A stretch of 64,000 nt of DNA. Source: Trypanosoma brucei (taxonomy: Eukaryota). Where the stretch lies: positions 800,001 through 864,000 of the forward strand of contig CP000068.1 of the NCBI GenBank assembly GCA_000002445.1, written 5' to 3'. Positions 41,901 through 62,856 of this stretch are shown here, in pieces (position 1 is the stretch's first letter; each line of letters starts with the position of its first letter). The notes beneath the pieces are model-generated. The model was not told where the DNA came from. It did not search any database and worked only from the letters and a program-made list of their open reading frames with translations. Position numbers and translations under genes: made by a program.

Positions 41901-44009
41901 GTTTTCTTTTTCTTTTTTCATTTTCATTTCTCTCCCTTCCTCCTTTTCCCCTCCTTTTAGTAACTTATTTGGGATATTTGGCAACAGAAGAGATGAAAAC
42001 GGAGGGAACCGCATTGTATCTTCTCATTTTTTGTTTTTTTTGTTTTTGCACCTTTTCCTTTAAATTCCATATCTTATGTTGTGTCGTGAGATGGTGACTT
42101 TTTTTATGTTTTTTTTTTAAAGAAAATTAATTAATGAGAAAATGTGTATTTTAAACATTTCATGTCGCCGTTTGTGTGTGTGTGTGTTGTTGTTGTTGTT
42201 TTTTAGCGAAGAGACAAAATAGCGGAAATGACAAAAAAACCAAAAGAGTAAAAAGGAGGAGTGAAGGTTAGGGCTGGAGTGGAATAAATTAAAAAAAAAG
42301 AAAAGGAGACAAAGAGAAGTAAAAACACAAAACGATTCTGAAATTTAAAAATAAAAAAAGGGGAAGGCAGGTAGCGAATGCGTCAAGCGGTGAGAAAACG
42401 CGTTCAGCTCTCGACACTTCCGCATTTTTTTTTCCCTGTCGTGTTGGTGTTTTATTTCGTTTTTAATAACCGGAACATGTTCGATTTTTTTTTTTTCTGA
42501 AAAAGAAAAAAAAAGGGAAGTTGAGGATATGAGTGAGTAAATGCGCGTCTTATTTTTGAGTTTGTGGCACTTCTGATTTTAATAAAGAACAGTGTGAGGG
42601 GTAGGGGAGAGAGAAAAAGTCCTTTTCATCTTGTTTACGTGACCCGCTACACTTTTGAATTAAGTTGCGGCAGTTAATCCCACAGTCTTTTTTTTTTGCG
42701 TAAATGAGATGCAAATTAAACAGGAAGGGAAAGAGAATAAACAGAGAGAAGAGAGGGGGGGGGGGGAAATAGAATGGTGAAAGAGTTTTCGTGATTTTAT
42801 TCCCTCTTGTGTTTTTTTTTTCCTCCTCTCCCCCCCATGATGTGGAAGATCCTCTTGATTTGTGGTGTATTTCATTTTGGTAGTGTTCCAACTCTCTCAA
42901 TTTTTCCCCATTTTTTCTTAAAAACCTTACGAGTTTGTTTGTTTGTTTGTTTTCCCCCCTCCTCCTCCTCTATGTTTCCATCCATCCATCCATCCATCCA
43001 TCCATCTCCTAAATTGACCTTCAGTTGTATATAAATACGACCCCATCCCTTCTAATTTTTTGTTGATGTTTTCCCGTTTTTTTTCTCTCTCTGCATGTGT
43101 GTGTGTGTGTGGTGTGTGGTGATTATTGTTAAAATTACTACTATTAATATTATTATTACCTTATATATTTTTTTTCCCTTTTCAATTTTGTGTTACACAT
43201 ATCAAAATAACGTACGCCACCTCAACCACCTCGTCTACTCGATTGCTTTCTTTTTTGTGTGTGTGTACGACAAAAAAGAAAATTCCACACAAACACACCA
43301 CACACATGCGCATTACACTCCAAAGTGTTTAACATGAAATGAAGGAAAAAACAAAATAAAATAAAGGAGGAAAGGAAGAAGGAAGGAAGGAAATAAAGGA
43401 GAGCGCGCATTAAAATGCATGGTGATGTTTGAGCAGCGCTAAACTTCCACATCTTTTTTTGCTTCCTTTTATATTTAACAACCTGATTTACTTCTTTTTT
43501 GTTTTTTACTCCCCTCTCCCTTCATTTTTTTGTTCTAGTCACTAACCTTCATCGCCATCAATCCCTCTTTTTCGTTTGTTTATTGTTTCGCTGTTTTTTT
43601 TTTCACTTTTTCGTTTACACGTTTTTGCTCTCGGTGGTGGTGGCGGCGGTGTTTTTTTTTTCTTTTTTTTTCCTCACTTGTTGATCTCTCTCCCTATAGC
43701 TGTGTTCGGTAATTGTAGTTGTAGAAGTTACACCGCTGTTTAACGTCTGCTATTTTACATATTTGCATTTGCGTAGGAGTGCAGTTGTGCATTAAAGCTC
43801 CTCTTTTCCCTCTTTCCTTTTTTCTTCTTTTTTGAACTCTTTTTTTTTTTAAAAAAAAAACATTTTAACTTGCCTTTTCTTCTTCTTGTTGTTGGATATG
43901 CTTTTAGCGTCGTGTGGTGTCGCATATAGCACAAGAAGCGAGAGGGAGGAAGAGGGAAAAGAAAAAAGAAAAGAATTCCCTTTCCGCACATAGTTCGCAC
44001 AGTTATATC
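38987..44009. repeat. A ~5 kb ORF-free, AT-rich low-complexity region made of alternating homopurine (GAAA/AAAT/AG-rich) and homopyrimidine (T/CT-rich) blocks with many microsatellites.
   Basis: No credible ORF on either strand; the track ORFs here translate poly-Lys/Phe/Ile repeats. (TA)n runs lie near 39048-39070, 39315-39335, 39578-39600, 39715-39740, 40620-40637 and 41538-41560. (AAAT)n lies at 40108-40125 and 40551-40566. (GT)n lies near 42174-42190 and 43093-43118. (CCAT)n lies at 42978-43006. A G12 run lies at 42755-42766. Confidence 0.6.
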
Positions 44010-44729
44010 ATGGCCTTTTGGGAAAAGATATGGTGCCGTCTTTTCGGCCGTGTAAATATCCCTGGTGTAGTTTACAGTGATGAAATTGATGCAACTGCCA
44101 CATATGACCGTCAGCAGCGGGAATCCATGTGGCGAGGTAACTTACGTAATGTCCGTCTCGACACGGTGCCACCGCTTTTGTTACGAACGAGTGGCGCCGA
44201 AAATGCCTTATTGGGACCCGAAGAGGAACCCTACACATTTTGGGAGCGGGTTGGTGTTGTTCCTGTACATCCCTCACGCGTGCGGCCCCGGCAATATTAT
44301 CATCCGATAACTGATTTTGGGTTGTACGATTATGATGAGGTGTCGCCGGAGGAGCGGGATTTAACGGCACGTTGGTTGGCGAAGGTGTTGGAGTTCAACG
44401 CAGCGGTGCCACTCGGCATTCTCTGTGCAGCTGGTTGTTTAGTGCTTCCTTTACACACGGTATATCGTATGCCCCTTTTGGTTGCATCGGCGGCAACGGG
44501 GGTAATGTTTGAGATCACACATTCGTACATGAATGCGGGGAAGGAACGACAGGATCTTGACGACTTCATATTGGCAAAGGAAATTTGGTATATCAAAAAC
44601 GTGGAGGCGTATCAGTTAGACATTCCGCTCATTCCCAAAGGACGTGAGGCGGAGTACCAGGCATTCCTGGATGGCTCTAATGGAACTTCGCAAATGTTGC
44701 CTGATGAGCTAGCGGAGGCCCTCCACTAA
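44010..44729 (+). CDS. Hypothetical protein (239 aa from the first ATG).
   Basis: The first in-frame ATG is at 44010; the track start at 43914 is GTG and its first 32 codons are Lys/Glu low complexity. A hydrophobic segment 'AVPLGILCAAGCLVLPL' is present. An antisense ORF at 44008..44370 is judged spurious. Confidence 0.45.
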   Translation: MAFWEKIWCRLFGRVNIPGVVYSDEIDATATYDRQQRESMWRGNLRNVRLDTVPPLLLRTSGAENALLGPEEEPYTFWERVGVVPVHPSRVRPRQYYHPITDFGLYDYDEVSPEERDLTARWLAKVLEFNAAVPLGILCAAGCLVLPLHTVYRMPLLVASAATGVMFEITHSYMNAGKERQDLDDFILAKEIWYIKNVEAYQLDIPLIPKGREAEYQAFLDGSNGTSQMLPDELAEALH

Positions 44730-45230
44730 AACAACAGTGGAAGGGCAATGCAAAAAGGCGGAGACATCAGTGTTTGGTTTCATCCGTCGCGTCGGTACGG
44801 AATTGGTGGAGAAGGGCGGGGTGGGGGGGGGGGGAGTAAACTCGTGTTGGGTTTCTTTCCCTTTTTTAAAAAAATAAAGGTTGTAAATGGTTTTGTTTTG
44901 TGCGGTATTTGCTGTTGTTCTGTTTCATTTTCACTTTGTCACGAGTTTCCTTTTTGTGCATGAGTGGGTCGCATTATCGATGCTTATGGTGCGACCGCCA
45001 TGCTCCTGTGGTTTTGCTGTATCACACACGAAAACACAAAAAAATATATTGTAAGTTGTGCCCGCTTGTACGAGGTGTTTCTTGGTGTATTCTACTTTTT
45101 CCCGTTTCTTAAGTATAACACAACCTTTTTTTTGGTTGTTCTTTGTTATTTACACCTTCTGATCTCTCTTGTCCCTTACCTAGTAGTCACATTACTGCAT
45201 TTTACCGGCTTAGTGGAGAGGCTGGTGCTC

Positions 45231-46064
45231 ATGTCTTACAGATTTTTCGCGTCGAAGCTAAAACCATGGAAAGACATTGTTACGGAAAGTGTTGATTGTT
45301 TAGTTGTTGCAGCCCTCTGCGGATCGTTCAACCCTATGCACAAAACGCACGTTGAGATGTACAACCTCGTAGAGGAGGTTCTGAAAGGAACGGTATGGCA
45401 AAAGTCTCTGTTAGTTGGTGGGTTTGTCTCTCCGGTGAACGATGGTTATGAAAAGGAAGGACTCCACAGTTTTGAGGAACGCGTCGCCGTCTGCGATGCG
45501 TCACTTGCTGGTCACCCTGCGTTATCTGTTGATCGTTGGGAAGGACTGCAGCCGGATTTTGTAAACACTTTTTGGGTGTTGGACCACATCCAGCGACAGG
45601 TGCAGAATTGGTACGAAAATGATGCCAATCCAAATGAGGCGCAGTTGTCGTGGTTACGCGAACACCCAGTGCGTGTACTGTTCGTTTGTGGAAGTGACCT
45701 TTCGGCGACATTTCTCATACCAGGCGTTTGGGAGCTACCGTTGCTTAAAAGGCTTCTAGATAACTTTGGTATTGTTGTGTACCGACGGCCGGGAACACCG
45801 AGCTGGAAGGAGTTGTTAGAAGCTGAGGGATCAGTTGTGCACGATGATCTCGTTGAAGAAGACGGAAGCATGACGCCATTATCTTTGGACCTCTCTTCCT
45901 ATTCAATTATTGAAACCGATCTGTTGAATAGCTTCATATCGGCTACGGATATTCGTAAGCAGCTGCTGATGGAGCCAGCAGCTGATCTTACTGCGTTTGT
46001 CATCCCCACCGCGGAGGAGCTTATCCGTAAGTTTTATGGGAAAGAGCCGGTGAGTATCTCCTAA
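45231..46064 (+). CDS. NMNAT: Nicotinamide/nicotinate mononucleotide adenylyltransferase (NMNAT).
   Basis: 'AALCGSFNPMHKTHVEM' resembles human NMNAT1 'LLACGSFNPITNMHLRL', the (H/T)xGH-type nucleotidyltransferase motif. 'VGGFVSPVNDGYEKEGL' resembles 'VKGIISPVGDAYKKKGL'. 'VLFVCGSDLSATFLIPGVW' resembles 'VKLLCGADLLESFAVPNLW'. 'ISATDIRKQL' resembles 'ISSTKIRRAL'. The start was set to the ATG at 45231; the upstream part of ORF 44964.. starts at GTG and reads as UTR. Confidence 0.8.
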   Translation: MSYRFFASKLKPWKDIVTESVDCLVVAALCGSFNPMHKTHVEMYNLVEEVLKGTVWQKSLLVGGFVSPVNDGYEKEGLHSFEERVAVCDASLAGHPALSVDRWEGLQPDFVNTFWVLDHIQRQVQNWYENDANPNEAQLSWLREHPVRVLFVCGSDLSATFLIPGVWELPLLKRLLDNFGIVVYRRPGTPSWKELLEAEGSVVHDDLVEEDGSMTPLSLDLSSYSIIETDLLNSFISATDIRKQLLMEPAADLTAFVIPTAEELIRKFYGKEPVSIS

Positions 46065-46495: not shown

Positions 46496-46556
46496 ATTCT
46501 TTTTAGCTTCGTGAGTTTTTCCCCCTTAATTCGCTATCCATTCATAGCAACCTTTT
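46496..46556 (+). promoter_or_regulatory. Polypyrimidine tract plus AG upstream of the ALO gene.
   Basis: 'cttaaattctttttagcttcgtgagtttttcccccttaattcgctatccattcatag' lies immediately 5' of the ATG at 46561. Confidence 0.45.
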
Positions 46557-46560
46557 GTAT

Positions 46561-48123
46561 ATGGGACAGGAGACGATGTCCGATGGGACTTGGACTAACT
46601 TTGCAAATATTGGAAAGTGTTTTCCTCGTAAACATCACTACCCCAATACTGTGGAAGAAGTTTCTTCTATTATAAAAGTTATTAACTCCGCTGGTGAGCG
46701 GTGCCGCGTGGTGGGTGGAGGGAAGAGCCCCAATTCATGTACATTTACTAATGGTCACCTGATTCACATGGATCGACTTAACCGCATTACTTCCATTGAC
46801 GAAAAATCTATGACTATCGTGTGTGAAGGTGGTGCATTAATAAGTGATGTGTTTGAGCGGTTGAGCGCCCATGATCTGATGCTCCGTTGTGTTCCATCTT
46901 TCGTGCAGACAACTGTTGGGGGTGTCATTGCTACTGCCACACACAGTAGTGGCATACGGTCCCGCTCCATCTCTGATTGTGTCGTCCGCCTTCAGCTGGT
47001 TGATGGACGCGGTATTCTTCATACGTTTGACGCCTCCACACCGAAGGAATTATCACTTTCCGCATGCCATCTCGGTATGTTAGGCGTCGTTGTTTCTGTG
47101 ACACTTCAGGCTGAGAAAAAACGACTGTGGCGCATAGAGAGCCGTCCCATTCCGTTCCGAAAATTGACTGAAGGCGATACACTTAAAAAACGCATTGCCG
47201 AGTCGGAGTTCTACCGCTTTTTCTGGATGCCCAATACAGACCAATGTTATGAGTCTACTGCTGAATTTGTTGGCGAAGAGGGGGCCGATCAGACGAAAAG
47301 AGTCGACGAATCTATCAAACTTGCGATGGGGAAGAAGCATGAGGCAACGTTACCAATGACCGCAGGAAACACAATTACAAAGCTAACCTCCAGCAAGTTG
47401 AGGAATTTTTCTTCCGAAAAGTGCAACAGCACGGGGGAGGACTATCAGATGTGGCTGCGAAATCAGCGGACCCTTCGAACTCGGATCTGCAAAATTCTTA
47501 AAGGTAGCTGGCTGCGCCACGGTGTGGTGGAGGCCGCACTTGCAGCAGCTGTCATTCAACCGGGTATACAACCTTACATTAATCGCACGTATCGTCGTCT
47601 CTTCTACAATGCTCCAGAAGTTCAATATGGCACCTCATTGGAATGCTTCACGTTCGACTGCCTCTTCAAGCAGTGGGCATGCGAGTGGGCGATTGACATT
47701 AGCAATGTCATGCCCGCGTTTCATTATCTTCGTGGCCTTATTTCCTCTGAAAACCTGAGTGTTCATTTCCCCGTTGAGTTCCGCTTTACTGGTGCTGATA
47801 CAGCTGCTCTGTCACCTGCGCATGGCCGTCAAACGTGTTGGATCGGTATCGTAATGTACCGTCCTTACTTGCGGCACGCTAGAGACACATTACGTTACTA
47901 CGATGCATTCAGCAAAGCCATGACGGTGATGGGTGGTAGGCCGCATTGGGCAAAATATTACACTTGGGGACCGGAGCAAATGCTGAAAGCTTACGGAAAG
48001 AATTGGGAGGATTTTCTGCTCTTTCGCAAGAAAATGGACCCGGAAGGTGTCTTTTTGAATGGTTGGTTCAATAGCCTCAGTGGAAACAGCCCAGTACTTA
48101 ACAGCACTATTAGTCATCTGTAG
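46561..48123 (+). CDS. ALO: FAD-linked sugar-1,4-lactone oxidase (GULO/ALO/GAL oxidase family; ascorbate biosynthesis, final step).
   Basis: Colinear with GULO. 'CRVVGGGKSPNSC' corresponds to 'VKVVGGGHSPSDIAC'. 'VQTTVGGVIATATHSSGI' corresponds to 'VSDVTVAGVIGSGTHNTGI'. 'EFYRFFWMPNTD' corresponds to 'EYFRFLWFPHTE'. 'HFPVEFRFTGADTAALSPA...IVMYRP...GGRPHWAKYY' corresponds to 'HYPVEVRFTRGDDILLSPC...IIMYRP...GGRPHWAKAH'. Confidence 0.8.
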   Translation: MGQETMSDGTWTNFANIGKCFPRKHHYPNTVEEVSSIIKVINSAGERCRVVGGGKSPNSCTFTNGHLIHMDRLNRITSIDEKSMTIVCEGGALISDVFERLSAHDLMLRCVPSFVQTTVGGVIATATHSSGIRSRSISDCVVRLQLVDGRGILHTFDASTPKELSLSACHLGMLGVVVSVTLQAEKKRLWRIESRPIPFRKLTEGDTLKKRIAESEFYRFFWMPNTDQCYESTAEFVGEEGADQTKRVDESIKLAMGKKHEATLPMTAGNTITKLTSSKLRNFSSEKCNSTGEDYQMWLRNQRTLRTRICKILKGSWLRHGVVEAALAAAVIQPGIQPYINRTYRRLFYNAPEVQYGTSLECFTFDCLFKQWACEWAIDISNVMPAFHYLRGLISSENLSVHFPVEFRFTGADTAALSPAHGRQTCWIGIVMYRPYLRHARDTLRYYDAFSKAMTVMGGRPHWAKYYTWGPEQMLKAYGKNWEDFLLFRKKMDPEGVFLNGWFNSLSGNSPVLNSTISHL

Positions 48124-48608: not shown

Positions 48609-48660
48609 CCTTAGTCACTAGCTGCAACCACAAAAAAAGAGAAAGAATTTGCAGGCGGGA

Positions 48661-51243
48661 ATGACGGAAACAGCGTTTCGAGGGACACTACTGCTTCTTC
48701 AAAACCGCACGCGTCGGGACCCGGAGGCCTACCGTGACGAGTTTCTCACACAACTTGACCACTTCAAGGCACTCACTCAAACCGTCGCGACACAAAAAGA
48801 GACAAACCCGCAGTATGTGGCAGTGCTCAATTTTGTTTGTCATGTCGGGCACTGCTACCCTAAGGAGTGTGAAGATGTAGCGGAAATTGTATTGAAGTTG
48901 CTGCAGGACTTTAAGGGAAGCACTATGACGTCGGATTTACGGCTCGTACTGGTTAAATCTCTGGCGCTTCTTCGTTCCAAAAACATCGTCTCTGCTGAGC
49001 GTTCCTTTCCATTGTTCTTCGAGCTGCTTCAAGAGCGTGACAAGGTCCTGAGACGCGTAATTCTTTCCCATATTGTCAGTGACATCCGCAGGGTGAACAT
49101 GCCAGGCGCCAAGAACGGTGCCGCCGTAAATAAAAAGGCACAGAACTTCTTGTTTGGTGTGATGGCAGATGACGACCCAGTGCAGGCTCGCTGCGCTGAA
49201 ATGGTGATGATTGATTTGTACCGCCGCCGTGTGTGGGCCGACGAGCGAACAGTGGAGGTGCTTACGCAAGCTTGTTTTTCAAGGCACACCGCCATTATCC
49301 GAACTGCACTACGTTTCTTCCTCCTACAGATGCCGAAAATAACTTCCATGGACAGCAAAAATGAAGACGATGATGATGACGACCCGGGAAGAGCCATATC
49401 GAAAATGAAACAGAAGCTGAAGATCAAAAAGAAGACAGGTAAACGAGAACGAATACTGAAACGTGAGGTTGGGGCAGTAAAGCGGAAGTACAACAAGGAA
49501 GAGAAAGAAGAGGAGCTACTCGCGAAGCAGCACGTGGATCCCATAAGGCTGCTGCGGAACCCACAGCAATTTGTTGAACGGTTGCTCGCACGTCTACAGA
49601 AGACAAGTGAGCGGTTCGAGGTTCGTGTTCTCTACTTGAATGTTATTGCGCGGACGGTTTCCGAACATGAGGTGGTACACCTTCCTTTATATGGTTTTCT
49701 AGAGCGCTACATGGAACCCTCGCAACTTCACTCCACACAACTGCTGGCGCTTTCTGTCATGTGCACTCACCGTATGGTGCCCCCTGACGCCCTCGAACCG
49801 CTCGTGAGAGCCATCGCAAACCACTTCGTTTCTGACCGATCGTCTCCCGATGCCATTACGGTTGGGTTGAACACAATACGCGAAATATGCAAACGTCAGC
49901 CCCTTGCAATGAACGCGGATCTTCTAAAGGACCTTGTTGAATATAAATCGCAGCGTGGTGACAAGGGTGTAGTAATGGCTGCCCGCGCTCTCATTCAGTT
50001 ATTCCGTCATGTTTACCCGGAGCTGCTTCCGGGTAAACTACGAACAAGGACAGTCGATGCCTCTACTGGGGAGGCGCCCAAACCCGTATACGGGAAGGAG
50101 CATGTGTACACAGATATTCCCGGTTTGGAGTTGCTTTATGCTGATGAGGGAAGCGACGCGTCTTCTCACAGCTGTTGCTCTGGCAGTAGTGATGACGACG
50201 ATGACAGCGATGGTACATGGGTAACGGATAGTAGCGACTGCGACCCAGACGATATTGAAGGTAGCTTTGTCGATGCCTCTGAATGCAGTAGTTGTGATGA
50301 AGAACACGAAGAGTGCCCCCAACTTGTAACCGTCAAACCTTCTTCAGGAGAACCACCATGTAAAGTAACAAAATATGAAAACAATGCAATAGGTGCTGAA
50401 TCGCAACCCTCTTTTCGTGAGGACATGCCATCCCAAGTACACAAGCCTTCTAACCAAGACAGCGACACGCCAAGTGAAGAATCGGGTGGCAGCAGCGAAC
50501 TGGAAGAGGAACTGGAAGAGTTTGAAGAAGTCGAAGGGGAGAGTTACGATGAGGAGGAAGGTGATGATAGTGATGTTGAGGAAGGAAGTGAAGAGGAGGG
50601 AGATGATTCTTCGTTTTGCTCTGAAGAGTGGGAAGATGAGGAGGAGGAAGCAGATGAAGAAGAGGATCAACCCTCACAAAAGGGCGAAAAAGACGTTGAA
50701 GGGGCAGGTGAGTGGTTTGAGGACGTTGACATTAACTCGACGCAACCATCGCAACGTTCAACAGTATCCAAACTGTCGTCGTCAGCGGCGCGCATTCTAA
50801 CGGACGAAGACTTTGCTCGCATCCGAGCCCTTCAAAAGAAGCAACAACAGGGTAAACTACTCTCAAAGCGTAAAGGAAAAGATGCAGAGGCACGAGCGAA
50901 GAAACGCGAAGCTCTCATTCACAGCGTTTCAGCGGATCTCACAGCAGAGGTCATTGAGCATTTCACTGAAAAGAAACGTACAGAAGACCGACAGGAAAAG
51001 ATTGCTCGCACTGAGGAACTGAGGCGGTCAAAGTCCAAGTTTGAGGCTCGAAAGAAGAAGAAGAGCAAGCTCAACTCTACTCATGTGGAGCATTCGAAGA
51101 GAGGAAAGTTGTTTAACATGACAAAGCGCTCACGACGGGTCGGGGCAAAGTTGAAATCTTCTGTGGCTGACCGTTCGAACCGAAATAAGGAAAACAAAAA
51201 GAAGGACATTAAGTTCCGCATCCGCCGTGGATGGAAGGCATAA
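48661..51243 (+). CDS. SDA1: SDA1 (severe depolymerisation of actin 1 / SDAD1) 60S ribosome-biogenesis/export factor.
   Basis: 'RRDPEAYRDEFLTQLDHFKA' resembles human SDAD1 '[20 protein letters not shown]'. 'VGHCYPKE' resembles 'ISHCYPEY'. 'IDLYRRRVWADERTVEVLTQACFS' resembles '[24 protein letters not shown]'. 'ERFEVRVLYLNVIAR' resembles 'ERFEVKMMLMNLISR'. 'TVGLNTIREICKRQPLAMN' resembles 'TVGINAIKEITARCPLAMT'. 'ILTDEDFARIRA' resembles 'VLTQEDFQKIRM'. The acidic Asp/Glu/Ser tracts are typical. Confidence 0.85.
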   Translation: MTETAFRGTLLLLQNRTRRDPEAYRDEFLTQLDHFKALTQTVATQKETNPQYVAVLNFVCHVGHCYPKECEDVAEIVLKLLQDFKGSTMTSDLRLVLVKSLALLRSKNIVSAERSFPLFFELLQERDKVLRRVILSHIVSDIRRVNMPGAKNGAAVNKKAQNFLFGVMADDDPVQARCAEMVMIDLYRRRVWADERTVEVLTQACFSRHTAIIRTALRFFLLQMPKITSMDSKNEDDDDDDPGRAISKMKQKLKIKKKTGKRERILKREVGAVKRKYNKEEKEEELLAKQHVDPIRLLRNPQQFVERLLARLQKTSERFEVRVLYLNVIARTVSEHEVVHLPLYGFLERYMEPSQLHSTQLLALSVMCTHRMVPPDALEPLVRAIANHFVSDRSSPDAITVGLNTIREICKRQPLAMNADLLKDLVEYKSQRGDKGVVMAARALIQLFRHVYPELLPGKLRTRTVDASTGEAPKPVYGKEHVYTDIPGLELLYADEGSDASSHSCCSGSSDDDDDSDGTWVTDSSDCDPDDIEGSFVDASECSSCDEEHEECPQLVTVKPSSGEPPCKVTKYENNAIGAESQPSFREDMPSQVHKPSNQDSDTPSEESGGSSELEEELEEFEEVEGESYDEEEGDDSDVEEGSEEEGDDSSFCSEEWEDEEEEADEEEDQPSQKGEKDVEGAGEWFEDVDINSTQPSQRSTVSKLSSSAARILTDEDFARIRALQKKQQQGKLLSKRKGKDAEARAKKREALIHSVSADLTAEVIEHFTEKKRTEDRQEKIARTEELRRSKSKFEARKKKKSKLNSTHVEHSKRGKLFNMTKRSRRVGAKLKSSVADRSNRNKENKKKDIKFRIRRGWKA

Positions 51244-54771: not shown

Positions 54772-55380
54772 TAAGCATCACCCCGTGTTGGGAATATTAT
54801 GTTATTTTTCCATTTGTTTCTTTGTTTCGTGCCATTTATAGGCTTCTAGATGCATATTCGACTTGGATCCTGGACTACCTTCTCATGTATTCAAGGGGTA
54901 CCTGGATGAGAGTAAGAGAAACTGAATCGCATTGGATGTTTGGTTGTTATTCGCCCTTCTTCCCTTATTTTTTGACATGTTTGTTGGTCTGCAATATTTA
55001 TTGTAGACCATGCTGTTTTGTCGGACAAAACATGTTAAAGATGAAGCTTCAATGCTGAACTGTGCGGTTTTTCTTCTTGTAGTATATATGTATATGTACT
55101 GATGTTTTTGTAGCCCATTACGTGAGACACACGTAGTGTGGATTTTCCGCATGTAAAAAAGGTGGTCACGTCCGTTACAAAAAAAAAAGGTTTTTTTTCC
55201 AGAATATGTTTGACTCTGGGCTTTCAGGGTCGAATTCTTTCTCTTTAAATTTCTCTTCCCCCATTTGACCACATCATCCCCATCTCCACGGTATAGGAAT
55301 TCTCTTATAGTGTAGCACTGTTACCACATCCCATTAACTGATTATATATATATATATATATTACATATTGTCGAATACCA

Positions 55381-56232
55381 ATGCCAATAAATAACTGTGA
55401 ATTGGACGCTGCTCTGCAGTTAGCCCTCCGGGCTGCTCATGGGGTTGCATGCACTATTGATAAAGCCATGGAAGAGCGGGACACAACACTACTTGACATT
55501 CAAACCAGGGAAAATGGGGAGGGTTTGATTACACAATATGATAAGCAGTGCGAGGAAGAAATAATTGCCATCCTTCGCTTAGGCGCACCGAGTTACGATA
55601 TCATCAGCGAGGAGCTTCACAGCGACACGGTACTGACGGACGCACCGACGTGGATGGTGAGCACCATCAACGGGACTTCTAGCTTTATCCATGGCCTTTT
55701 CGACTGCTGCGTCTCTATAGCCCTCGTTGTAGACAAGGAACCTGTCATCGGCGTTGTTAATGCTCCGAGACTGCATGAAGTTTATTCTGCTATTCGGGGT
55801 CGTGGTGCATATCTCAATGGTCAACGCATTCGAGTCTCAGAGACGCGTAGCATTAACCAATCTGTTGTGTACCTTCACAACCCTTGCGGAGAAGGAGAGG
55901 TTGTGGTGAACACCGTAATTGAGATGCAGAAGGAATTTACGAGGATGCCCGTGCACGCTCTTCGTGTTCATGGTTCTGTCGCGCTTGACATGTGCTTCAT
56001 TGCCACGGGTCGTGCTGAGCTCTTTCTTAAAGTTGGTGTGCATCCGTGGGATGTTGCCGCCGCCACCGTCATTGTGCGTGAGGCAGGAGGAGTTGTCCAC
56101 GATATTGACAATTTAAACATCCTGGATCTCACAACGTGCACGGTGTGCTGTGCTAACTCGAGCGAGATCTCTAACATAGGAGTGGGAGTTGCAGCTAAAC
56201 ATGGCTACAAAAAATCGGTGTTAGGATGCTAG
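55381..56232 (+). CDS. Inositol monophosphatase (IMPase/FIG superfamily)-fold protein with a degenerate metal-binding motif.
   Basis: It aligns to human IMPA1. 'IISEELHSDTVLTDAPTWMVSTINGTSSFIHG' corresponds to 'FIGEES...[22 protein letters not shown]'. 'GVHPWDVAAATVIVREAGGVV' corresponds to 'GIHCWDVAGAGIIVTEAGGVL'. The canonical DPIDGT reads STINGT here. Confidence 0.7.
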   Translation: MPINNCELDAALQLALRAAHGVACTIDKAMEERDTTLLDIQTRENGEGLITQYDKQCEEEIIAILRLGAPSYDIISEELHSDTVLTDAPTWMVSTINGTSSFIHGLFDCCVSIALVVDKEPVIGVVNAPRLHEVYSAIRGRGAYLNGQRIRVSETRSINQSVVYLHNPCGEGEVVVNTVIEMQKEFTRMPVHALRVHGSVALDMCFIATGRAELFLKVGVHPWDVAAATVIVREAGGVVHDIDNLNILDLTTCTVCCANSSEISNIGVGVAAKHGYKKSVLGC

Positions 56233-57439: not shown

Positions 57440-58157
57440 TTATACGGGTTGAGCTTGCACTAAGTCCTTCTTACATGTTTGTTCCTGTTCGGTGAAAAGG
57501 GGGTTATTTACACCCCTCCCCGCCTCTTCTTAGGCGTGAAAAGCATTGAATAGATCTGAGAGGGAAAGATAAAGCGAAGCGAGAGTTTGAATGGCAAAAG
57601 AGGTAATAGAGTTGGATGTCATCACTACTTGCATACCTTTTTTTTTTTGCTTTAACACGAGTAAGTGGTGAGGCTGGCAAGAGTGACACTCCAATGTCAA
57701 ATCATAAATAGTAACCATTTTTGGTCGCAGGACAGGGTGTGTTTGTACCTTTCGGTTTGGAAAAAAAAAATGGAGTTGAGAGAGGTGTTGTCAGTTTTGC
57801 CATCTTTACGAGGGTGATGCCACGTACAAACCCCTCCTTTCATGAGCAGTTATTGAACTCTCACGGCTGCTTTCGCAGTTCTTTTATGTATCATGGACTC
57901 TCCAACGTGCATTGCCATCCAAAATTACCCCCGACTCCTCTCTTCCTATTGCTAACATGATCAACATCTGAATTCTCGCTGTAGAAGTTACCACGGCGAA
58001 GGGAATAGGTGCAAAAAAAAAAATTGCATCGAAGGTGAACTGCATTTGATCAGCTCCGTGATTTGGGGAAGCGGGAGGGGAGGTCGACCAACACAATCTA
58101 GCAGAGGAGCGAGTTCCTGTGAAAACCCCCGTTAAGATACCGCTCCATCTTTAATTG

Positions 58158-60932
58158 ATGAGCTCTTCACAAGGAGAAATGCCCCGACCGGTGGTATCGG
58201 GTGCGGGTGCACTTCGGTGGGGAGAGAGCACCAACAACAACACCAGTAGTGGTAATGCGAGTTGCGTTACTACCACGGTATCTGTTTTTCGGCAGAGTGT
58301 TGATAATTGTAGCGGTGAGTGTTCGAACAAAACAGCGGTAGTAGCGTCGTTGCCCAGTTTGTTTAGCGGCATGGAGGTAACGAGAACACAGTGCAGGAGA
58401 CGTGCAGCGGCCGAAAGAACGGGAACATCGCATACTTCCCGAGCCGAATCTTTAGTTTCAGGAACACTTCATAGTGAGGTAGTTTCAACCGAAGTGAAAA
58501 CTGTAGAAAGTGTCTTCACGGGAGCTGTTGGAAACCAAACATTTTCTTATGAAAGTGAGCAAGGGGTGGAGGAAAGAGGTGAATTCAATGCGAGGTTCCA
58601 GGAGGTTGATGAAACCCCTGTTCGACGCAGCCCATTAGCGACCCAAGAGGATGCCAGAGCTGCAGTCTTGATGGGGAACGTCAAAGAAGCCGTTAGTACT
58701 CCTTCGGTAAACTCCGCTGTTGAAATGAGTGCTCCTCAACATAATGTGAAACCTAGCAACGTGATGTTCCCTGAGAGAGGTACACTCTCGTTTATGAAGT
58801 CCGCATTTGGATTTATCTCCGGCCAAGGCGAAAAACATGAAAACTCGGGAGAGGTGGCTGATTACGATGCCAAAAACGACGTTGGAGGGAGTGATGATGC
58901 ACCCATTATCCCACCACTTTGCGCACTTTATGGGTCCAAAATTCTTTCTGGTAATTGTTCAGAAAAAACACAACATGCTGAAGAAGCAGCAGCAGCACTT
59001 GTGCTTCCCCTGCAACATGAATTTAAAGGAAACCTTACCACGGAGAGCATGAACGATGGAAGGTGTGATTATGTTGCCATTAATTCTTGTTGCTTTCCCA
59101 CCAGGGGTGAAGGGAACTACGTGAGCACGGTGGATGACCGAGAAGATCGCCTGAACAATCAAGTGAGAGCTGTGGGCACTTTGGAACCTTACAATACTTC
59201 AAATATCTTGGGGGAAGGCGTGGAAATGGATCAGCAACAGGTCACACACCCAAGGAATATCTCTGGGAGTGTTAAAAACAGAAAACCGTGGGAAGAACGA
59301 TGGGACAGGCGCCGCCAAGAGGTTCGCGAGGCGGAGCGCAACGTCCTGAAAGCAGTTGAAACTATCGCGATCAAACTTGGCGAAGTCCATGCTTCCATTG
59401 AGGAGCGTCGAAAGATTGTACGCGCGGCCTCCGAAGTGGAAAAACGTATCGAGCAATGTATCATCGAGGAGGCATTTGACGGGGCAGAGGCTCTAAACGC
59501 AGAGCTGACACACCTGTTCCACCGTGTGGCAGAGCTGGATGACGAGACGCTGAACTCATTTTTACCGTCCTTAACCAAGTATGGCACTCATTTGCAATCA
59601 GAGGTGATAGCTTTCGCAGAACTTCTTCGTCAGCACCATCAAGATGTTTTGGATTCCGGAGATACCGCTGAATTGGAGATCCAAACTTTCATTACAGAAT
59701 CAACGCAACGTCTCAACAGTCTTCTTAAAGATATCGCCTCCCAAATGGAGAGGTCGATAGGGAAGCAGCAGATTGCACAGCAAAAGATGAATGAGATATG
59801 CGAACGTAAGGATGGTATAATGAAGACAATACGAGAGCAGAACTACGGAACACTGGAAATACAACAACAGTTAGGCAGCGAGGTGGCGGAAATCGATGAG
59901 GAAATGGAAGAGCTGGAAGCGAAGCTTGCAGAGCTGAGACGCCTTCGTGCAATCAAGATGGAAAAAATGAAAGAGATGGAACAACGGGTAAGATGTAGCT
60001 TGGATGAGCGCCGCATGCTGGAAAGTGAGTTGGACAAACTCATCACACGGGCGGAAAAGAATTTATTCGCGGCAAACGAAGAGGTTGAGAAGCTGCGTGT
60101 CGAACTGGAGTCGTATGAAAGTGGTAGGGCAGCGTTTGAAGTGAAGAAGGAGCTTATTCTTGAGGAGTGGGAGTGTGAAACCTCCACAGCCGGAGGTTGC
60201 GATCTGCGTCGCGTATCGCTGGAAACGCAAACACTTACTTCTGTACGTGAATATACGTCGTCACTCACCACCCTCTTGCGGCTACGAAGCGACGGCATTT
60301 GTTTTCTTGGTGACGTGGCGCCATCCATTGATCCCTCTTCACCGGAATCCCAAGACTGCCTCCTATCGGTTACACACAACCTCCGGAAGAAGTTGAGCGA
60401 TCTTGAGATGGAGAACGAAATGAATGATAAGTTGGTCAAATTACTTGACGTTAAATTAGTAGAAATGCGAAGCAGTTTAGCTGTACTAGGGGCAATGAAA
60501 CAAACTGCCATTCAGGCGAGACAATTCAGAGAGGCGCAGGCGAAATCCGATGAGATACGTGAACTTTCTGATGCCATCAAAAGAGAGGAGGAAACTCGAA
60601 CCAACATCCAAAAGAGGTTACAAACAATTGGCGATCTTCGAGAGGAGCTTCAAAAGAGGTTGTGTGACGAAAACAGTCAATGTGAAGTTAAGGTCAGGGA
60701 GTATCTATTCAACTATAAAAGTTGTATCGACAAGACGGAGGAGGCGGGTGCTGCATTGGTGGACGCGCTTCATAATTCCATCGGTAAGGAATCGATGCTT
60801 GGAAGTGTTGACCTCGTAGAGGCAACACAGCAGCTGGTGGATGTACTGAGGGAAGAACTCGAAGGTGCAAGTATGGCTTCGTCTTTAAATCCAGTGGATC
60901 AACAGAGCTCTGAGGCGGTCAAATACGAGTGA
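58158..60932 (+). CDS. Large hypothetical coiled-coil protein (924 aa).
   Basis: The first ATG is at 58158; the track start is TTG. The N-terminal ~350 aa are Ser/Thr/Glu-rich. The C-terminal ~550 aa are heptad-rich (e.g. 'EEMEELEAKLAELRRLRAIKMEKMKEMEQRVRCSLDERRMLESELDKLITRAEKNLFAANEEVEKLRVELESYESG'). The antisense ORF at 59843..60511 is judged spurious. Confidence 0.55.
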   Translation: MSSSQGEMPRPVVSGAGALRWGESTNNNTSSGNASCVTTTVSVFRQSVDNCSGECSNKTAVVASLPSLFSGMEVTRTQCRRRAAAERTGTSHTSRAESLVSGTLHSEVVSTEVKTVESVFTGAVGNQTFSYESEQGVEERGEFNARFQEVDETPVRRSPLATQEDARAAVLMGNVKEAVSTPSVNSAVEMSAPQHNVKPSNVMFPERGTLSFMKSAFGFISGQGEKHENSGEVADYDAKNDVGGSDDAPIIPPLCALYGSKILSGNCSEKTQHAEEAAAALVLPLQHEFKGNLTTESMNDGRCDYVAINSCCFPTRGEGNYVSTVDDREDRLNNQVRAVGTLEPYNTSNILGEGVEMDQQQVTHPRNISGSVKNRKPWEERWDRRRQEVREAERNVLKAVETIAIKLGEVHASIEERRKIVRAASEVEKRIEQCIIEEAFDGAEALNAELTHLFHRVAELDDETLNSFLPSLTKYGTHLQSEVIAFAELLRQHHQDVLDSGDTAELEIQTFITESTQRLNSLLKDIASQMERSIGKQQIAQQKMNEICERKDGIMKTIREQNYGTLEIQQQLGSEVAEIDEEMEELEAKLAELRRLRAIKMEKMKEMEQRVRCSLDERRMLESELDKLITRAEKNLFAANEEVEKLRVELESYESGRAAFEVKKELILEEWECETSTAGGCDLRRVSLETQTLTSVREYTSSLTTLLRLRSDGICFLGDVAPSIDPSSPESQDCLLSVTHNLRKKLSDLEMENEMNDKLVKLLDVKLVEMRSSLAVLGAMKQTAIQARQFREAQAKSDEIRELSDAIKREEETRTNIQKRLQTIGDLREELQKRLCDENSQCEVKVREYLFNYKSCIDKTEEAGAALVDALHNSIGKESMLGSVDLVEATQQLVDVLREELEGASMASSLNPVDQQSSEAVKYE

Positions 60933-61440: not shown

Positions 61441-62856
61441 ATGGCTGAAACACCAAAGGAGATTCCGCCGGATGAAGCACCGCTACGAGCGGCGATGGGG
61501 GAGGTTCAGGAAGATGTCGCGCATAACACGGAGGGCGATGAGGAGAGTACCGCAAATTGTATTCGGACGGAACTAGGCGAAATGAATGAAATTGAATCCC
61601 GGTGCCCGCGGTGCGGAGGGAACGGGACCACGCGCCTCATGATTACGAACATACCCCACTTTAAAGAGGTGATCGTCAGCAGTTTTGAATGTCCTCACTG
61701 TGGTGAGCGAAATAACGAAGTTACATTTGGAGGTGAGTTTGGACCAAAATCAGTGCGGTACGAACTAGAGGTGAAATCAAAGAAGGATTTGGATCGTCAG
61801 GTTGTAAAGTCAGAGTACGCAACAATTCGTATACCTGAGTTGGATCTGGAAATACCTCGGGAGTCGCAACGAGGTGTGCTTAACACTGTCGAGGGGTTTC
61901 TGGAGCAAACGGAGTCTGGTTTACAGCTTCAGCAACCACTTCGTCGAATACAGCATCCCGAATTGTATGAGAAACTTGAGACCTTCTGTGAGAAGGTCCG
62001 ACAATATCGCACTGGAGATGTGCCCTTTACATTCATCATTGATGACCCCGCAGGTAACAGTTACGTCGAGGCTTACTATGATTACTACCACCCAACCATT
62101 GATCCTCAATTGACACGGTATGAAAAGGAGCGGACGAACATTGACCGTCAACTTCTCGGGTTAACAATTGAATACAATACGCAGAGAACGGATGCGGAGC
62201 AGCGTGAGGTGCAGGAGGGGCAATTTGATGACGTAGTACGTATGGAAACAGAGTGCAGTGCATGCAAAAAACCTGGATTCATAAATATTCAGCAGGTTAA
62301 TATCCCATATTTCAAGGAAACCGTCATTATGGCGTTCCGTTGTGATTTCTGCGGTTACAAGAGTAACGAAGTGAAATCTGGTGGTGCAGTAGCAGAGAAG
62401 GGACTTAAAATAACACTTGAAGTGAAGTCGGAGAGCGATCTGAAGCGTGATGTCCTCAAATCCGACAGCACAACATTGTTGATCCCCGAAGTCGCGCTAG
62501 AGTTGGCCCCTGGAACGCTTGGCGGCTTCTTTTCAACAGTTGAGGGAACACTCATGATGGTGCGTGACCAGCTGAAAAGTTTACCACAGGCGCAATTTGC
62601 TAAAGGTGATGCGGCGGCTACCGATCCGGAGGCTAAAACGCTAACTACCTTCGTAAAAGAACTTGAGCATCTGTTGGAGCTGAAGAGGCCTTTCACATTC
62701 ATTCTCGACGACCCGTTGGCGAACGTTTACATTCAAAACCCCCGTGAGCATCTGCCACCACCGGAGAATGAAGACCCGCAGTTGACAAAAACATATTATA
62801 CCCGTACTTTCGAACAGGACGAAGAACTTGGCTTCCATCAGATGAATGTCAACTAG
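61441..62856 (+). CDS. ZPR1: ZPR1 zinc-finger protein.
   Basis: Two ZPR1-type C4 fingers are each followed by an A/B domain. The first is 'CPRCGGNGTTRLMITNIPHFKEVIVSSFECPHCGERNNEV'. The second is 'CSACKKPGFINIQQVNIPYFKETVIMAFRCDFCGYKSNEV'. The two-module architecture (471 aa) is typical of ZPR1. Confidence 0.9.
   Translation: MAETPKEIPPDEAPLRAAMGEVQEDVAHNTEGDEESTANCIRTELGEMNEIESRCPRCGGNGTTRLMITNIPHFKEVIVSSFECPHCGERNNEVTFGGEFGPKSVRYELEVKSKKDLDRQVVKSEYATIRIPELDLEIPRESQRGVLNTVEGFLEQTESGLQLQQPLRRIQHPELYEKLETFCEKVRQYRTGDVPFTFIIDDPAGNSYVEAYYDYYHPTIDPQLTRYEKERTNIDRQLLGLTIEYNTQRTDAEQREVQEGQFDDVVRMETECSACKKPGFINIQQVNIPYFKETVIMAFRCDFCGYKSNEVKSGGAVAEKGLKITLEVKSESDLKRDVLKSDSTTLLIPEVALELAPGTLGGFFSTVEGTLMMVRDQLKSLPQAQFAKGDAAATDPEAKTLTTFVKELEHLLELKRPFTFILDDPLANVYIQNPREHLPPPENEDPQLTKTYYTRTFEQDEELGFHQMNVN

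What the first reader, a model, noticed from the sequence alone, without database searches (positions are those of the whole stretch)
55381..56232. IMPase-fold protein with both canonical metal-ligand aspartates substituted (DPIDGT to STINGT)
The protein aligns colinearly with inositol monophosphatase. It keeps the 'EE' and 'WDxAAG' motifs. The signature D-P-I-D-G-T is S-T-I-N-G-T, so the two Asp residues that coordinate the catalytic Mg2+ ions in IMPA1 (Asp90 and Asp93) are replaced by Ser and Asn. This suggests a catalytically impaired pseudo-phosphatase or an enzyme with altered metal and substrate chemistry.
Basis: partly seen in the sequence, partly recalled or inferred. Interest (0 to 1): 0.5.

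Follow-up and report, generated by a model that had tools for sequence, protein, structure and literature searches.

The report
Trypanosome inositol monophosphatase, broken metal site
This is an annotated Trypanosoma brucei "inositol monophosphatase 1" gene whose protein keeps the enzyme fold but has lost two of the four acidic residues that hold the catalytic magnesium ions; its positional counterparts in at least two other parasite lineages lost such residues independently, so it is most likely a conserved non-catalytic pseudo-phosphatase.

Summary
Window 55381..56232 (+) encodes a 283-aa protein identical to T. b. brucei TREU927 XP_844941.1, "inositol-1(or 4)-monophosphatase 1, putative" (chromosome 5; Tb927.5.2690 by inference).

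- **Family and fold:** it matches Pfam PF00459 (E 2.7e-52) and models confidently as an IMPase fold (pLDDT 89.8; TM 0.91 to human IMPA2).
- **Motif:** DPIDGT reads STINGT, so human D90 becomes S94 and D93 becomes N97. E213 is also changed, to K217. E70/E71, the T95/D47 pair and D220 are kept.
- **Not an error:** the T. b. gambiense assembly has the same codons.
- **Family context:** D90 and D220 are Asp in 74/74, and D93 in 73/74, non-kinetoplastid homologues.
- **Recurrent loss:** syntenic orthologues in T. vivax, T. cruzi and Leptomonas are canonical. T. congolense, T. theileri/T. melophagium and Leishmania/Porcisia have each lost different catalytic residues.
- **Selection:** degenerate lineages remain under purifying selection (dN/dS 0.19–0.28, against 0.13–0.15 for intact pairs). 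Their changes at conserved positions are concentrated in the active site.

Best reading: a pseudo-phosphatase kept for a non-catalytic role. This is inferred; no assay exists. Residual or altered activity is not excluded. One Trypanozoon haplotype keeps Asp at position 97. I could not retrieve the second T. brucei IMPase (Tb927.9.6350).

The parts
55381..56232 (+). Complete CDS (283 aa plus stop) of the T. brucei IMPase-family protein, identical to XP_844941.1 / Q57ZU5, 'inositol-1(or 4)-monophosphatase 1, putative'
55660..55677 (+). Degenerate motif A, S94-T95-I96-N97-G98-T99 (AGC ACC ATC AAC GGG ACT), in place of D-P-I-D-G-T. S94 corresponds to human D90 (ligand of Mg-I and Mg-II) and N97 to D93 (Mg-II). 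T99 corresponds to the catalytic T95 and is kept.
   Evidence: ligand roles from PMC4954947
55609..55614 (+). E77-E78, corresponding to human E70/E71 (ligand of Mg-I and Mg-III); retained
55540..55542 (+). D54, corresponding to human D47 (Thr/Asp dyad partner); retained here, but lost in T. theileri/T. melophagium (Thr) and Leishmania (Glu)
   Evidence: dyad mentioned in the bioRxiv paper read
55522..55524 (+). G48, replacing an Asp (human D41) that is at least 90% conserved in the family; it lies next to the low-confidence mobile loop (residues 37-45)
56029..56031 (+). K217, replacing human E213 (an inositol-binding residue by my own knowledge; not checked against a source here). It is Glu in 64/74 non-kinetoplastid homologues and at least 90% conserved in the 27 intact kinetoplastid orthologues.
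56047..56091 (+). Motif B, W223-D224-x11-G236-G237 (WDVAAATVIVREAGG); retained, including D224, which corresponds to human D220 (Mg-II ligand)

Best explanation
The gene encodes a stably folded IMPase-family protein that can no longer build the canonical magnesium centre, so it is a catalytically dead or near-dead pseudo-phosphatase. Shown: the fold is intact. Shown: the carboxylate that bridges Mg-I and Mg-II (D90) is Ser, and the second Mg-II ligand (D93) is Asn. The acidic pocket therefore falls from four carboxylates to two. Shown: the Glu that contacts the inositol ring (E213) is Lys. Shown: the positional orthologue has lost different catalytic residues independently in at least three trypanosomatid clades. 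In those clades the rest of the protein stays under purifying selection. Inferred: selection on catalysis was dropped, probably because a second IMPase gene and inositol uptake cover that need. Inferred: the protein is kept for a non-catalytic property of the fold. That property is most plausibly protein binding or dimerisation, possibly with the second IMPase, Tb927.9.6350. Binding of a phosphorylated ligand without turnover is another possibility. It sits in the cytoplasm and flagellum (TrypTag localisation quoted in PMC7595295).
For: - Fold and family: Pfam PF00459 at E 2.7e-52. AF2 model pLDDT 89.8 and pTM 0.90, with the motif at a strand-helix junction at pLDDT about 91. Foldseek to IMPA2 2czi gives E 9e-26 and TM 0.91.
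- Ligand loss: with ligand roles from PMC4954947.
- Family invariance: D90 74/74, D93 73/74 and D220 74/74 in non-kinetoplastid homologues.
- True orthology: the IQ-protein / IMPase / otubain gene order is conserved in T. b. gambiense, T. vivax, T. cruzi, T. theileri, T. melophagium and Leptomonas; the IQ gene lies upstream in Leishmania.
- Recurrent decay: T. congolense has E70K, E71D, I92T, D93N and T95S. T. theileri/T. melophagium have D47T, E70G/R, D93G/A, T95A and D220N. Leishmania/Porcisia have D47E, D90G/S and D220N/S. T. vivax, T. cruzi, T. grayi, T. rangeli, T. conorhini, Leptomonas, Novymonas, Phytomonas, Strigomonas and Neobodo are canonical. The NJ tree follows the species tree.
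- Continued constraint: dN/dS is 0.22 (T. theileri/T. melophagium) and 0.19-0.28 (Leishmania pairs), against 0.15 and 0.13 for intact pairs. pN is below pS at p no higher than 6e-15.
- Where T. brucei changed: 5 of 14 pre-defined active-site positions against 6 of 60 other conserved positions (p = 0.028). The same enrichment is seen in 7 of the 8 other degenerate species tested.
- Modest acceleration only: 1.3-3x faster than intact sister lineages. It is gene-specific, because the neighbouring otubain control gives 0.64x and 1.02x.
- Overall conservation: T. brucei to T. cruzi identity is 61%, higher than the adjacent otubain gene at 55%.
Against: - No enzymatic measurement exists for this protein in anything I could read.
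- T. brucei still has E70/E71, the T95/D47 dyad, G94, W219 and D220. Ser and Asn side chains can ligate metal ions, so weak or altered activity is possible.
- One Trypanozoon haplotype (P0123, Logan assemblies) reads STIDGT, with Asp at position 97.
- dN/dS could not be measured for the T. brucei lineage itself. dS is saturated against T. vivax and T. cruzi, there are only 4 differences from T. b. gambiense, and no T. congolense DNA was available.
- PMC7595295 lists both IMPase genes as individually non-essential in bloodstream forms. De novo inositol synthesis is described as required for GPI synthesis (PMC4114554). This could mean the two genes are redundant, which would imply that this one is active.
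- The catalytic integrity of Tb927.9.6350 was not checked.
Confidence: 0.6

Rival explanations
1. It is still a working phosphatase with altered chemistry. The remaining E77/E78, D224, the T99/D54 dyad and the oxygen atoms of S94 and N97 would hold one or two metal ions more weakly, or a different metal. K217 and V200 would retune the substrate pocket away from inositol monophosphate towards another phosphoester.
For: Retained residues are shown. The STIDGT haplotype keeps the D93 equivalent. Both IMPase genes are reported individually dispensable in bloodstream forms although de novo inositol synthesis is needed, which would fit redundancy. IMPase-family enzymes are known to take varied substrates such as histidinol phosphate, and an entry described as dephosphorylating a riboflavin-pathway intermediate is PDB 9mmi.
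Against: D90 is invariant in 74/74 homologues and bridges both tight metal sites. The sister species T. congolense has additionally lost E70, E71 and T95, and two other clades lost D47, T95 and D220. That pattern is expected when catalysis is not under selection, not when it is being retuned. The different lineages show no convergent new motif.
Confidence: 0.22
2. It is a redundant gene in slow decay with no remaining function, an incipient unitary pseudogene that has not yet acquired a stop codon.
For: It is non-essential in bloodstream forms. Protein evolution is accelerated 1.6-2.5x relative to T. vivax and to the otubain control. TREU927 versus T. b. gambiense shows 2 nonsynonymous and 2 synonymous differences. 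Five amino-acid positions vary among four Trypanozoon haplotypes.
Against: The ORF is intact and of constant length in every Trypanozoon entry, in T. congolense and in all other degenerate lineages. 54 of 60 conserved non-active-site positions are kept, against about 46% change at variable positions. It is more conserved than the neighbouring otubain gene. dN/dS is about 0.2 with p below 1e-14 in the other degenerate clades. A tagged protein gives a cytoplasm/flagellum signal.
Confidence: 0.13
3. It is a sequencing, assembly or alignment artefact, and the real gene has DPIDGT.
For: Intact DPIDGT is present in T. vivax, T. cruzi and many other orthologues.
Against: The codons are identical in the independent T. 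b. gambiense assembly. The protein is identical in TREU927 and T. equiperdum. D to S needs two base changes. The alignment register is gap-free and anchored by the invariant P89, T90 and W91 before the motif and G98 after it.
Confidence: 0.01

Closest known systems
Human inositol monophosphatases IMPA1 and IMPA2 (PDB 1imc/2bji, 2czi)
   Same: Same five-layer alpha-beta fold and colinear sequence (28-35% identity; TM 0.83-0.91). EE, G94, T95, D47 and the WD-x11-GG motif are kept.
   Different: D90 to Ser, P91 to Thr, D93 to Asn, E213 to Lys, A196 to Val and D41 to Gly. The Mg-I/Mg-II centre lacks its bridging carboxylate, so catalysis in the IMPA1 manner is not expected.
Canonical positional orthologues in T. 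cruzi, T. vivax, T. grayi, Leptomonas and Neobodo
   Same: Same locus (IQ protein / IMPase / otubain), same length, 51-62% identity.
   Different: They keep all seven catalytic residues tested. T. brucei departs at 11 of 74 highly conserved positions, against 0-3 for the intact trypanosomatid species compared (9 for the distant bodonid Neobodo).
Degenerate orthologues in T. congolense, T. theileri/T. melophagium and Leishmania/Porcisia
   Same: Same orthogroup, and the same kind of event: loss of metal ligands or dyad residues while the ORF is retained under purifying selection.
   Different: Different residues are hit in each clade, for example E70K in T. congolense, D47T/T95A/D220N in the T. 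theileri group and D47E/D90G/D220N in Leishmania. The losses are therefore independent.
Bacterial SuhB (IMPase fold acting as a Nus factor in rRNA antitermination; PDB 6tqn, 6ib8)
   Same: An IMPase-fold protein used as a protein-binding module. It appears among the sequence and fold matches. By my own knowledge, not verified here, the regulatory role of SuhB does not need phosphatase activity.
   Different: SuhB keeps an intact active site and is an active IMPase. There is no evidence that the T. brucei protein binds transcription factors.
Trypanosomatid 'prozymes': dead paralogues that activate AdoMetDC, deoxyhypusine synthase and PRMT1 (PMC5201418, PMC3663545, bioRxiv 10.1101/776112)
   Same: A catalytically degenerate paralogue of an oligomeric enzyme, retained in a trypanosomatid genome beside a second copy.
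   Different: Known prozymes are dead in all trypanosomatids and essential. Here the loss is lineage-specific and recurrent, and the gene is reported non-essential in bloodstream forms. No heteromer has been shown.

Membership tests
IMPase family (Pfam PF00459; Li+-sensitive, Mg2+-dependent phosphomonoesterase superfamily) | Sequence match to the family profile above the curated threshold | tested here: met
   178.4 bits against a cut-off of 27; E 2.7e-52
IMPase family (Pfam PF00459; Li+-sensitive, Mg2+-dependent phosphomonoesterase superfamily) | Five-layer alpha-beta-alpha-beta-alpha fold | tested here: met
   AF2 pLDDT 89.8 and pTM 0.90. Foldseek top hits are IMPA2, SuhB and IMPA1, with TM up to 0.91.
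IMPase family (Pfam PF00459; Li+-sensitive, Mg2+-dependent phosphomonoesterase superfamily) | Motif A, D-P-[ILV]-D-[GS]-[TS], supplying the D90 and D93 metal ligands | tested here: not met
   The motif reads S-T-I-N-G-T. It is D..D in 73-74 of 74 homologues.
IMPase family (Pfam PF00459; Li+-sensitive, Mg2+-dependent phosphomonoesterase superfamily) | Glu70/Glu71 metal ligand pair | tested here: met
   E77/E78
IMPase family (Pfam PF00459; Li+-sensitive, Mg2+-dependent phosphomonoesterase superfamily) | Motif B, W-D-x11-G-G, with the D220 metal ligand | tested here: met
   W223 D224 ... G236 G237
IMPase family (Pfam PF00459; Li+-sensitive, Mg2+-dependent phosphomonoesterase superfamily) | Thr95/Asp47 dyad that activates the nucleophilic water | tested here: met
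   T99 and D54
IMPase family (Pfam PF00459; Li+-sensitive, Mg2+-dependent phosphomonoesterase superfamily) | Inositol-contacting residues (human E213, A196) | tested here: not met
   K217 and V200. E213 is Glu in 64/74 homologues and at least 90% conserved in intact kinetoplastid orthologues.
IMPase family (Pfam PF00459; Li+-sensitive, Mg2+-dependent phosphomonoesterase superfamily) | Mg2+-dependent, Li+-inhibited inositol monophosphate hydrolysis | not testable with these tools
   Needs an enzyme assay. No published assay was found.
Pseudoenzyme / trypanosomatid prozyme | Lacks residues required for catalysis in the parent family | tested here: met
   D90S and D93N, plus E213K
Pseudoenzyme / trypanosomatid prozyme | Retained under purifying selection after loss of the catalytic residues | tested here: inconclusive
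   Met for the Leishmania and T. theileri clades (dN/dS 0.19-0.28). For T. brucei the evidence is only indirect: 54/60 non-active-site conserved positions are kept and the ORF is intact in all haplotypes and in T. congolense.
Pseudoenzyme / trypanosomatid prozyme | A catalytically competent paralogue exists in the same genome | not tested
   The literature lists a second IMPase gene, Tb927.9.6350. Its sequence could not be retrieved, so its motifs were not examined.
Pseudoenzyme / trypanosomatid prozyme | Forms a heteromer with the active paralogue and activates it | not testable with these tools
   Needs co-purification and activity assays, or multimer modelling with the paralogue sequence.

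The most novel reading that the evidence does not exclude
The IMPase-1 orthogroup of trypanosomatids has a second, catalysis-independent function. In T. brucei, T. congolense, the T. theileri group and Leishmania this is now its only function. One attractive form is a fourth trypanosomatid 'prozyme' system, in which the dead subunit heterodimerises with the active IMPase (Tb927.9.6350) and controls the de novo inositol supply for GPI anchors. Alternatively it could be a non-hydrolysing sensor of inositol phosphate.
Probability: 0.12. Interest if true: 0.7.

Novelty: new variant of a known kind. Interest (0 to 1): 0.45.

Why it matters
Reviews and pathway maps of T. brucei inositol and phosphoinositide metabolism count Tb927.5.2690 as one of two inositol monophosphatases. 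That pathway supplies GPI anchors and is being explored for drug targets. If this protein is inactive, the essential dephosphorylation of inositol-3-phosphate rests on the other gene or on an unidentified phosphatase. Knock-down results for "IMPase 1/2" would then need re-reading.

The repeated, independent loss of catalytic residues in syntenic orthologues, with purifying selection maintained, is a clean natural experiment. It points to a non-catalytic role for a eukaryotic IMPase fold. It also gives matched active (T. cruzi, T. vivax) and degenerate (T. brucei, Leishmania) proteins for direct comparison.

Tried and rejected
1. **Second T. brucei IMPase (Tb927.9.6350).** It is not among the 120 listed hits, which means below about 123 bits to the query. 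No available query would rank it, and no eukaryotic genome collection is searchable by name. I ran no further search on a low-odds attempt.
2. **dN/dS on the T. brucei branch.** pS against T. vivax and T. cruzi is 0.76-0.84, which is saturated. T. b. gambiense differs at only 4 codons. I substituted relative-rate tests and conserved-site tests.
3. **Literature on activity.** Cestari et al. 2016 (PMC4876820) and Martin & Smith 2006 (PMC3793301) are not held. A search for SuhB D87N found nothing. Searches for trypanosome or Leishmania IMPase characterisation found only pathway tables.
4. **Sequencing error.** Rejected.
5. **Alignment shift that would restore the Asp residues.** Rejected. The register is fixed by the invariant P89, T90 and W91 before the motif and by G98 and F102-x-H104-G105 after it, with no gaps.
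6. **D93N as a shared ancestral change of T. brucei and T. congolense.** Considered, then weakened by the STIDGT haplotype P0123.
7. **Functional link to the nearby arabinonolactone oxidase gene**, by analogy with plant VTC4. Considered and regarded as coincidence, because trypanosomatid polycistrons are not operons (own knowledge).
8. **Model coordinates.** They are not downloadable, so active-site geometry and the dimer interface could not be measured.

Full report
**What is there.** Window 55381..56232 (+) is a complete ORF of 283 codons.

- The protein matches Pfam PF00459 (Inositol_P) at E 2.7e-52.
- It matches human IMPA2 and IMPA1 in the PDB at E 1.5e-40 and 4e-39.
- It is residue-for-residue identical to XP_844941.1 / AAZ11382.1 / Q57ZU5 of Trypanosoma brucei brucei TREU927, "inositol-1(or 4)-monophosphatase 1, putative". 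That entry lies on a 1.6-Mb contig.
- It is 99% identical to the T. b. gambiense DAL972 protein on record FN554968.1.
- The literature lists exactly two T. brucei IMPase genes, Tb927.5.2690 and Tb927.9.6350 (PMC7595295; PMC5921579). By chromosome, this one is Tb927.5.2690. That assignment is an inference. The papers disagree on which gene is called "1" and which "2".
- All ORFs of at least 200 aa in the window, apart from three antisense ORFs (two of which overlap larger + ORFs), lie on the + strand, as expected for one trypanosomatid polycistron.
- The neighbours are an IQ-motif protein upstream and an otubain (Peptidase_C65) downstream.

HMMER alignments to IMPA1 and IMPA2 are gap-free across the motif. 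They set STINGT (aa 94-99, nt 55660-55677) against DPIDGT. MAFFT alignments with 24, 43 and 80 other sequences give the same register. In human numbering:

| Human residue | T. brucei | Status |
|---|---|---|
| D90 | S94 | changed |
| P91 | T95 | changed |
| D93 | N97 | changed |
| E70 / E71 | E77 / E78 | kept |
| T95 | T99 | kept |
| D47 | D54 | kept |
| W219 / D220 | W223 / D224 | kept |
| WD-x11-GG spacing | intact | kept |

The third motif is WDVAAA rather than WDxAAG.

According to PMC4954947, Mg-I is held by E70, D90 and the I92 carbonyl. Mg-II is held by D90, D93 and D220. Mg-III is held by E70 only. The apo pocket carries four carboxylates: E70, D90, D93 and D220. This protein has two of the four and has lost the one that bridges both tight sites.

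**Not an artefact, and unusual for the family.**

- The T. b. gambiense CDS differs at four codons only (M30I, H221D and two synonymous changes). Its motif codons are identical: AGC ACC ATC AAC GGG ACT.
- Asp to Ser needs two base changes.
- Among 74 non-kinetoplastid homologues (animals, algae, bacteria), D90 is Asp in 74, D93 in 73 and D220 in 74.
- The AF2 model is confident (pLDDT 89.8, pTM 0.90). The motif lies at a strand-helix junction at pLDDT about 91. Only the mobile loop 37-45 is poorly predicted.
- Foldseek returns IMPA2, SuhB and IMPA1 with TM up to 0.91.

**Comparative picture.** The orthologues are positional. The IQ-protein / IMPase / otubain order is found in T. b. gambiense, T. 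vivax, T. cruzi, T. theileri, T. melophagium and both Leptomonas species. The IQ gene lies upstream in Leishmania and T. conorhini.

Of 44 aligned sequences, 29 keep all of D47, E70, E71, D90, D93, T95 and D220. These include T. vivax, T. cruzi, T. grayi, T. conorhini, T. rangeli, Leptomonas, Novymonas, Phytomonas, Strigomonas and Neobodo.

The degenerate sequences form clades that follow the species tree:

1. **T. brucei and T. congolense.**
   - T. brucei: D90S, P91T, D93N, E213K.
   - T. congolense: E70K, E71D, P91V, I92T, D93N, T95S.
   - Their sister T. vivax is intact.
2. **T. theileri and T. melophagium:** D47T, E70G/R, D93G/A, T95A, D220N.
3. **Leishmania and Porcisia:** D47E, D90G/S, variable E70/E71/T95, D220N/S. 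These are nested among intact Leishmaniinae.
4. **A long-branch group of unnamed Logan sequences (P0041, P0042, P0046, P0050).** It is even more degenerate, and its origin is unknown.

The catalytic residues have therefore been lost at least three times independently. Within each clade these positions keep changing, as expected for sites released from constraint.

**The rest of the protein is still constrained.**

- Nei-Gojobori dN/dS is 0.22 for T. theileri/T. melophagium and 0.19-0.28 for Leishmania pairs. Intact pairs give 0.15 (T. cruzi/T. conorhini) and 0.13 (the two Leptomonas). pN is below pS at p no higher than 6e-15 in every pair.
- dS is saturated for T. brucei against T. vivax and T. 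cruzi, so only indirect tests are possible for that lineage.
- T. brucei departs from 11 of the 74 positions that are at least 90% conserved in intact kinetoplastid orthologues. The intact trypanosomatid species compared depart at 0-3; the distant bodonid Neobodo departs at 9.
- Five of those departures fall in 14 pre-defined active-site positions and six in the other 60 (Fisher p = 0.028). About 46% of the variable positions differ from T. vivax or T. cruzi.
- The same enrichment appears in seven of the eight other degenerate species tested.
- The T. brucei branch is 1.57 times the T. vivax branch for this gene, but 0.64 times for the adjacent otubain gene. T. theileri against T. cruzi gives 2.39 times for this gene and 1.02 times for otubain.
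- This is a gene-specific acceleration of about 2.5-fold, far from neutral.
- The protein is also more conserved between T. brucei and T. cruzi (61%) than otubain is (55%).

**Interpretation.** The best-supported reading is a pseudo-phosphatase. The fold is kept and the magnesium centre is dismantled. Selection on catalysis is gone, while selection on something else persists.

What that other function is has not been shown. IMPases are dimers. A bacterial member of the fold, SuhB, serves as a structural Nus factor (PDB 6tqn and 6ib8 among the hits). That its regulatory role does not need catalysis is my own recollection. Trypanosomatids repeatedly use dead paralogues as activating subunits, as with AdoMetDC, DHS and PRMT1. 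A partner or regulator role, possibly with Tb927.9.6350, is therefore the most attractive mechanism. I give it only about 0.12.

**Arguments for caution.**

- T. brucei is the least degenerate of the degenerate lineages. E70/E71, the dyad and D220 are all intact.
- Ser and Asn can ligate metals.
- A Trypanozoon haplotype from Logan assemblies (P0123) reads STIDGT. N97 is therefore either polymorphic or recently reverted. The shared D93N of T. brucei and T. congolense may not be inherited.
- Both IMPase genes are tabulated as individually dispensable in bloodstream forms. De novo inositol is described as feeding essential GPI synthesis through an IMPase activity placed in the ER (PMC4114554). 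That could indicate redundancy between the two genes.
- The protein has no obvious signal peptide or C-terminal PTS1 (read directly from the sequence) and is reported as cytoplasm/flagellum.

**Novelty.** The gene is annotated and has been used in knock-down studies as an IMPase. In the papers I could search, I found no mention of its degenerate metal site or of the recurrent loss across trypanosomatids. I class it as a new variant of a known kind: an IMPase-family pseudoenzyme candidate. Interest is moderate. It corrects a pathway annotation in a drug-target pathway and offers a tidy case of parallel pseudoenzyme evolution. The functional claim still needs a bench assay.

Noticed in passing
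Protein P0123 (same 90% cluster as window 55381-56232); codon 97 = window 55669-55671: A Trypanozoon haplotype seen on 4 Logan contigs reads WMVSTIDGTSS, with Asp rather than Asn at position 97, together with I30 and K83. D90S is common to all haplotypes seen, but N97/D97 varies by one transition. The source organism or strain is unknown.
   Followed up: partly
Proteins P0041, P0042, P0046, P0050 (Logan assemblies): This is a long-branch clade of IMPase-1-like proteins at the base of the trypanosomatid group. It is even more degenerate (for example ISRL / DPIGGA and ISKV / NPVGGF). It could be a further independent loss or an old dead paralogue.
   Followed up: partly
Literature: PMC7595295 versus PMC5921579: The labels 'IMPase 1' and 'IMPase 2' are swapped between papers from the same laboratory. 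Tb927.9.6350 is called IMPase 1 in one and IMPase 2 in the other. The NCBI name of the chromosome-5 gene is '...monophosphatase 1'. Knock-down results are therefore hard to assign to a gene.
   Followed up: no
window 46555-48123 (+): A D-arabinono-1,4-lactone oxidase gene (Pfam ALO plus FAD_binding_4; ascorbate synthesis) lies about 7 kb upstream of the IMPase-like gene. Plant VTC4, an IMPase-family enzyme, works in ascorbate synthesis (own knowledge). The proximity is probably coincidental in a polycistron.
   Followed up: no
window 55343-55361: A (TA)n microsatellite of about 19 bases lies 20 bases upstream of the start codon, preceded by pyrimidine-rich tracts (about 55240-55262) that could serve trans-splicing.
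   Followed up: no
window 58155-60932 (+) and 43914-44729 (+): Two ORFs (925 aa and 271 aa) have no Pfam match. The 925-aa ORF is conserved in synteny downstream of otubain in T. b. gambiense, T. vivax, T. cruzi, T. theileri and T. melophagium, as genes of 918-1000 aa.
   Followed up: no
window 1-64000: All ORFs of at least 200 aa lie on the + strand apart from three antisense ORFs, two of which overlap larger + ORFs. This is consistent with a single directional polycistronic transcription unit. Other identified neighbours are SDA1 (48649-51243), ZPR1 (61441-62856) and a cytidylyltransferase-like protein (44964-46064).
   Followed up: partly
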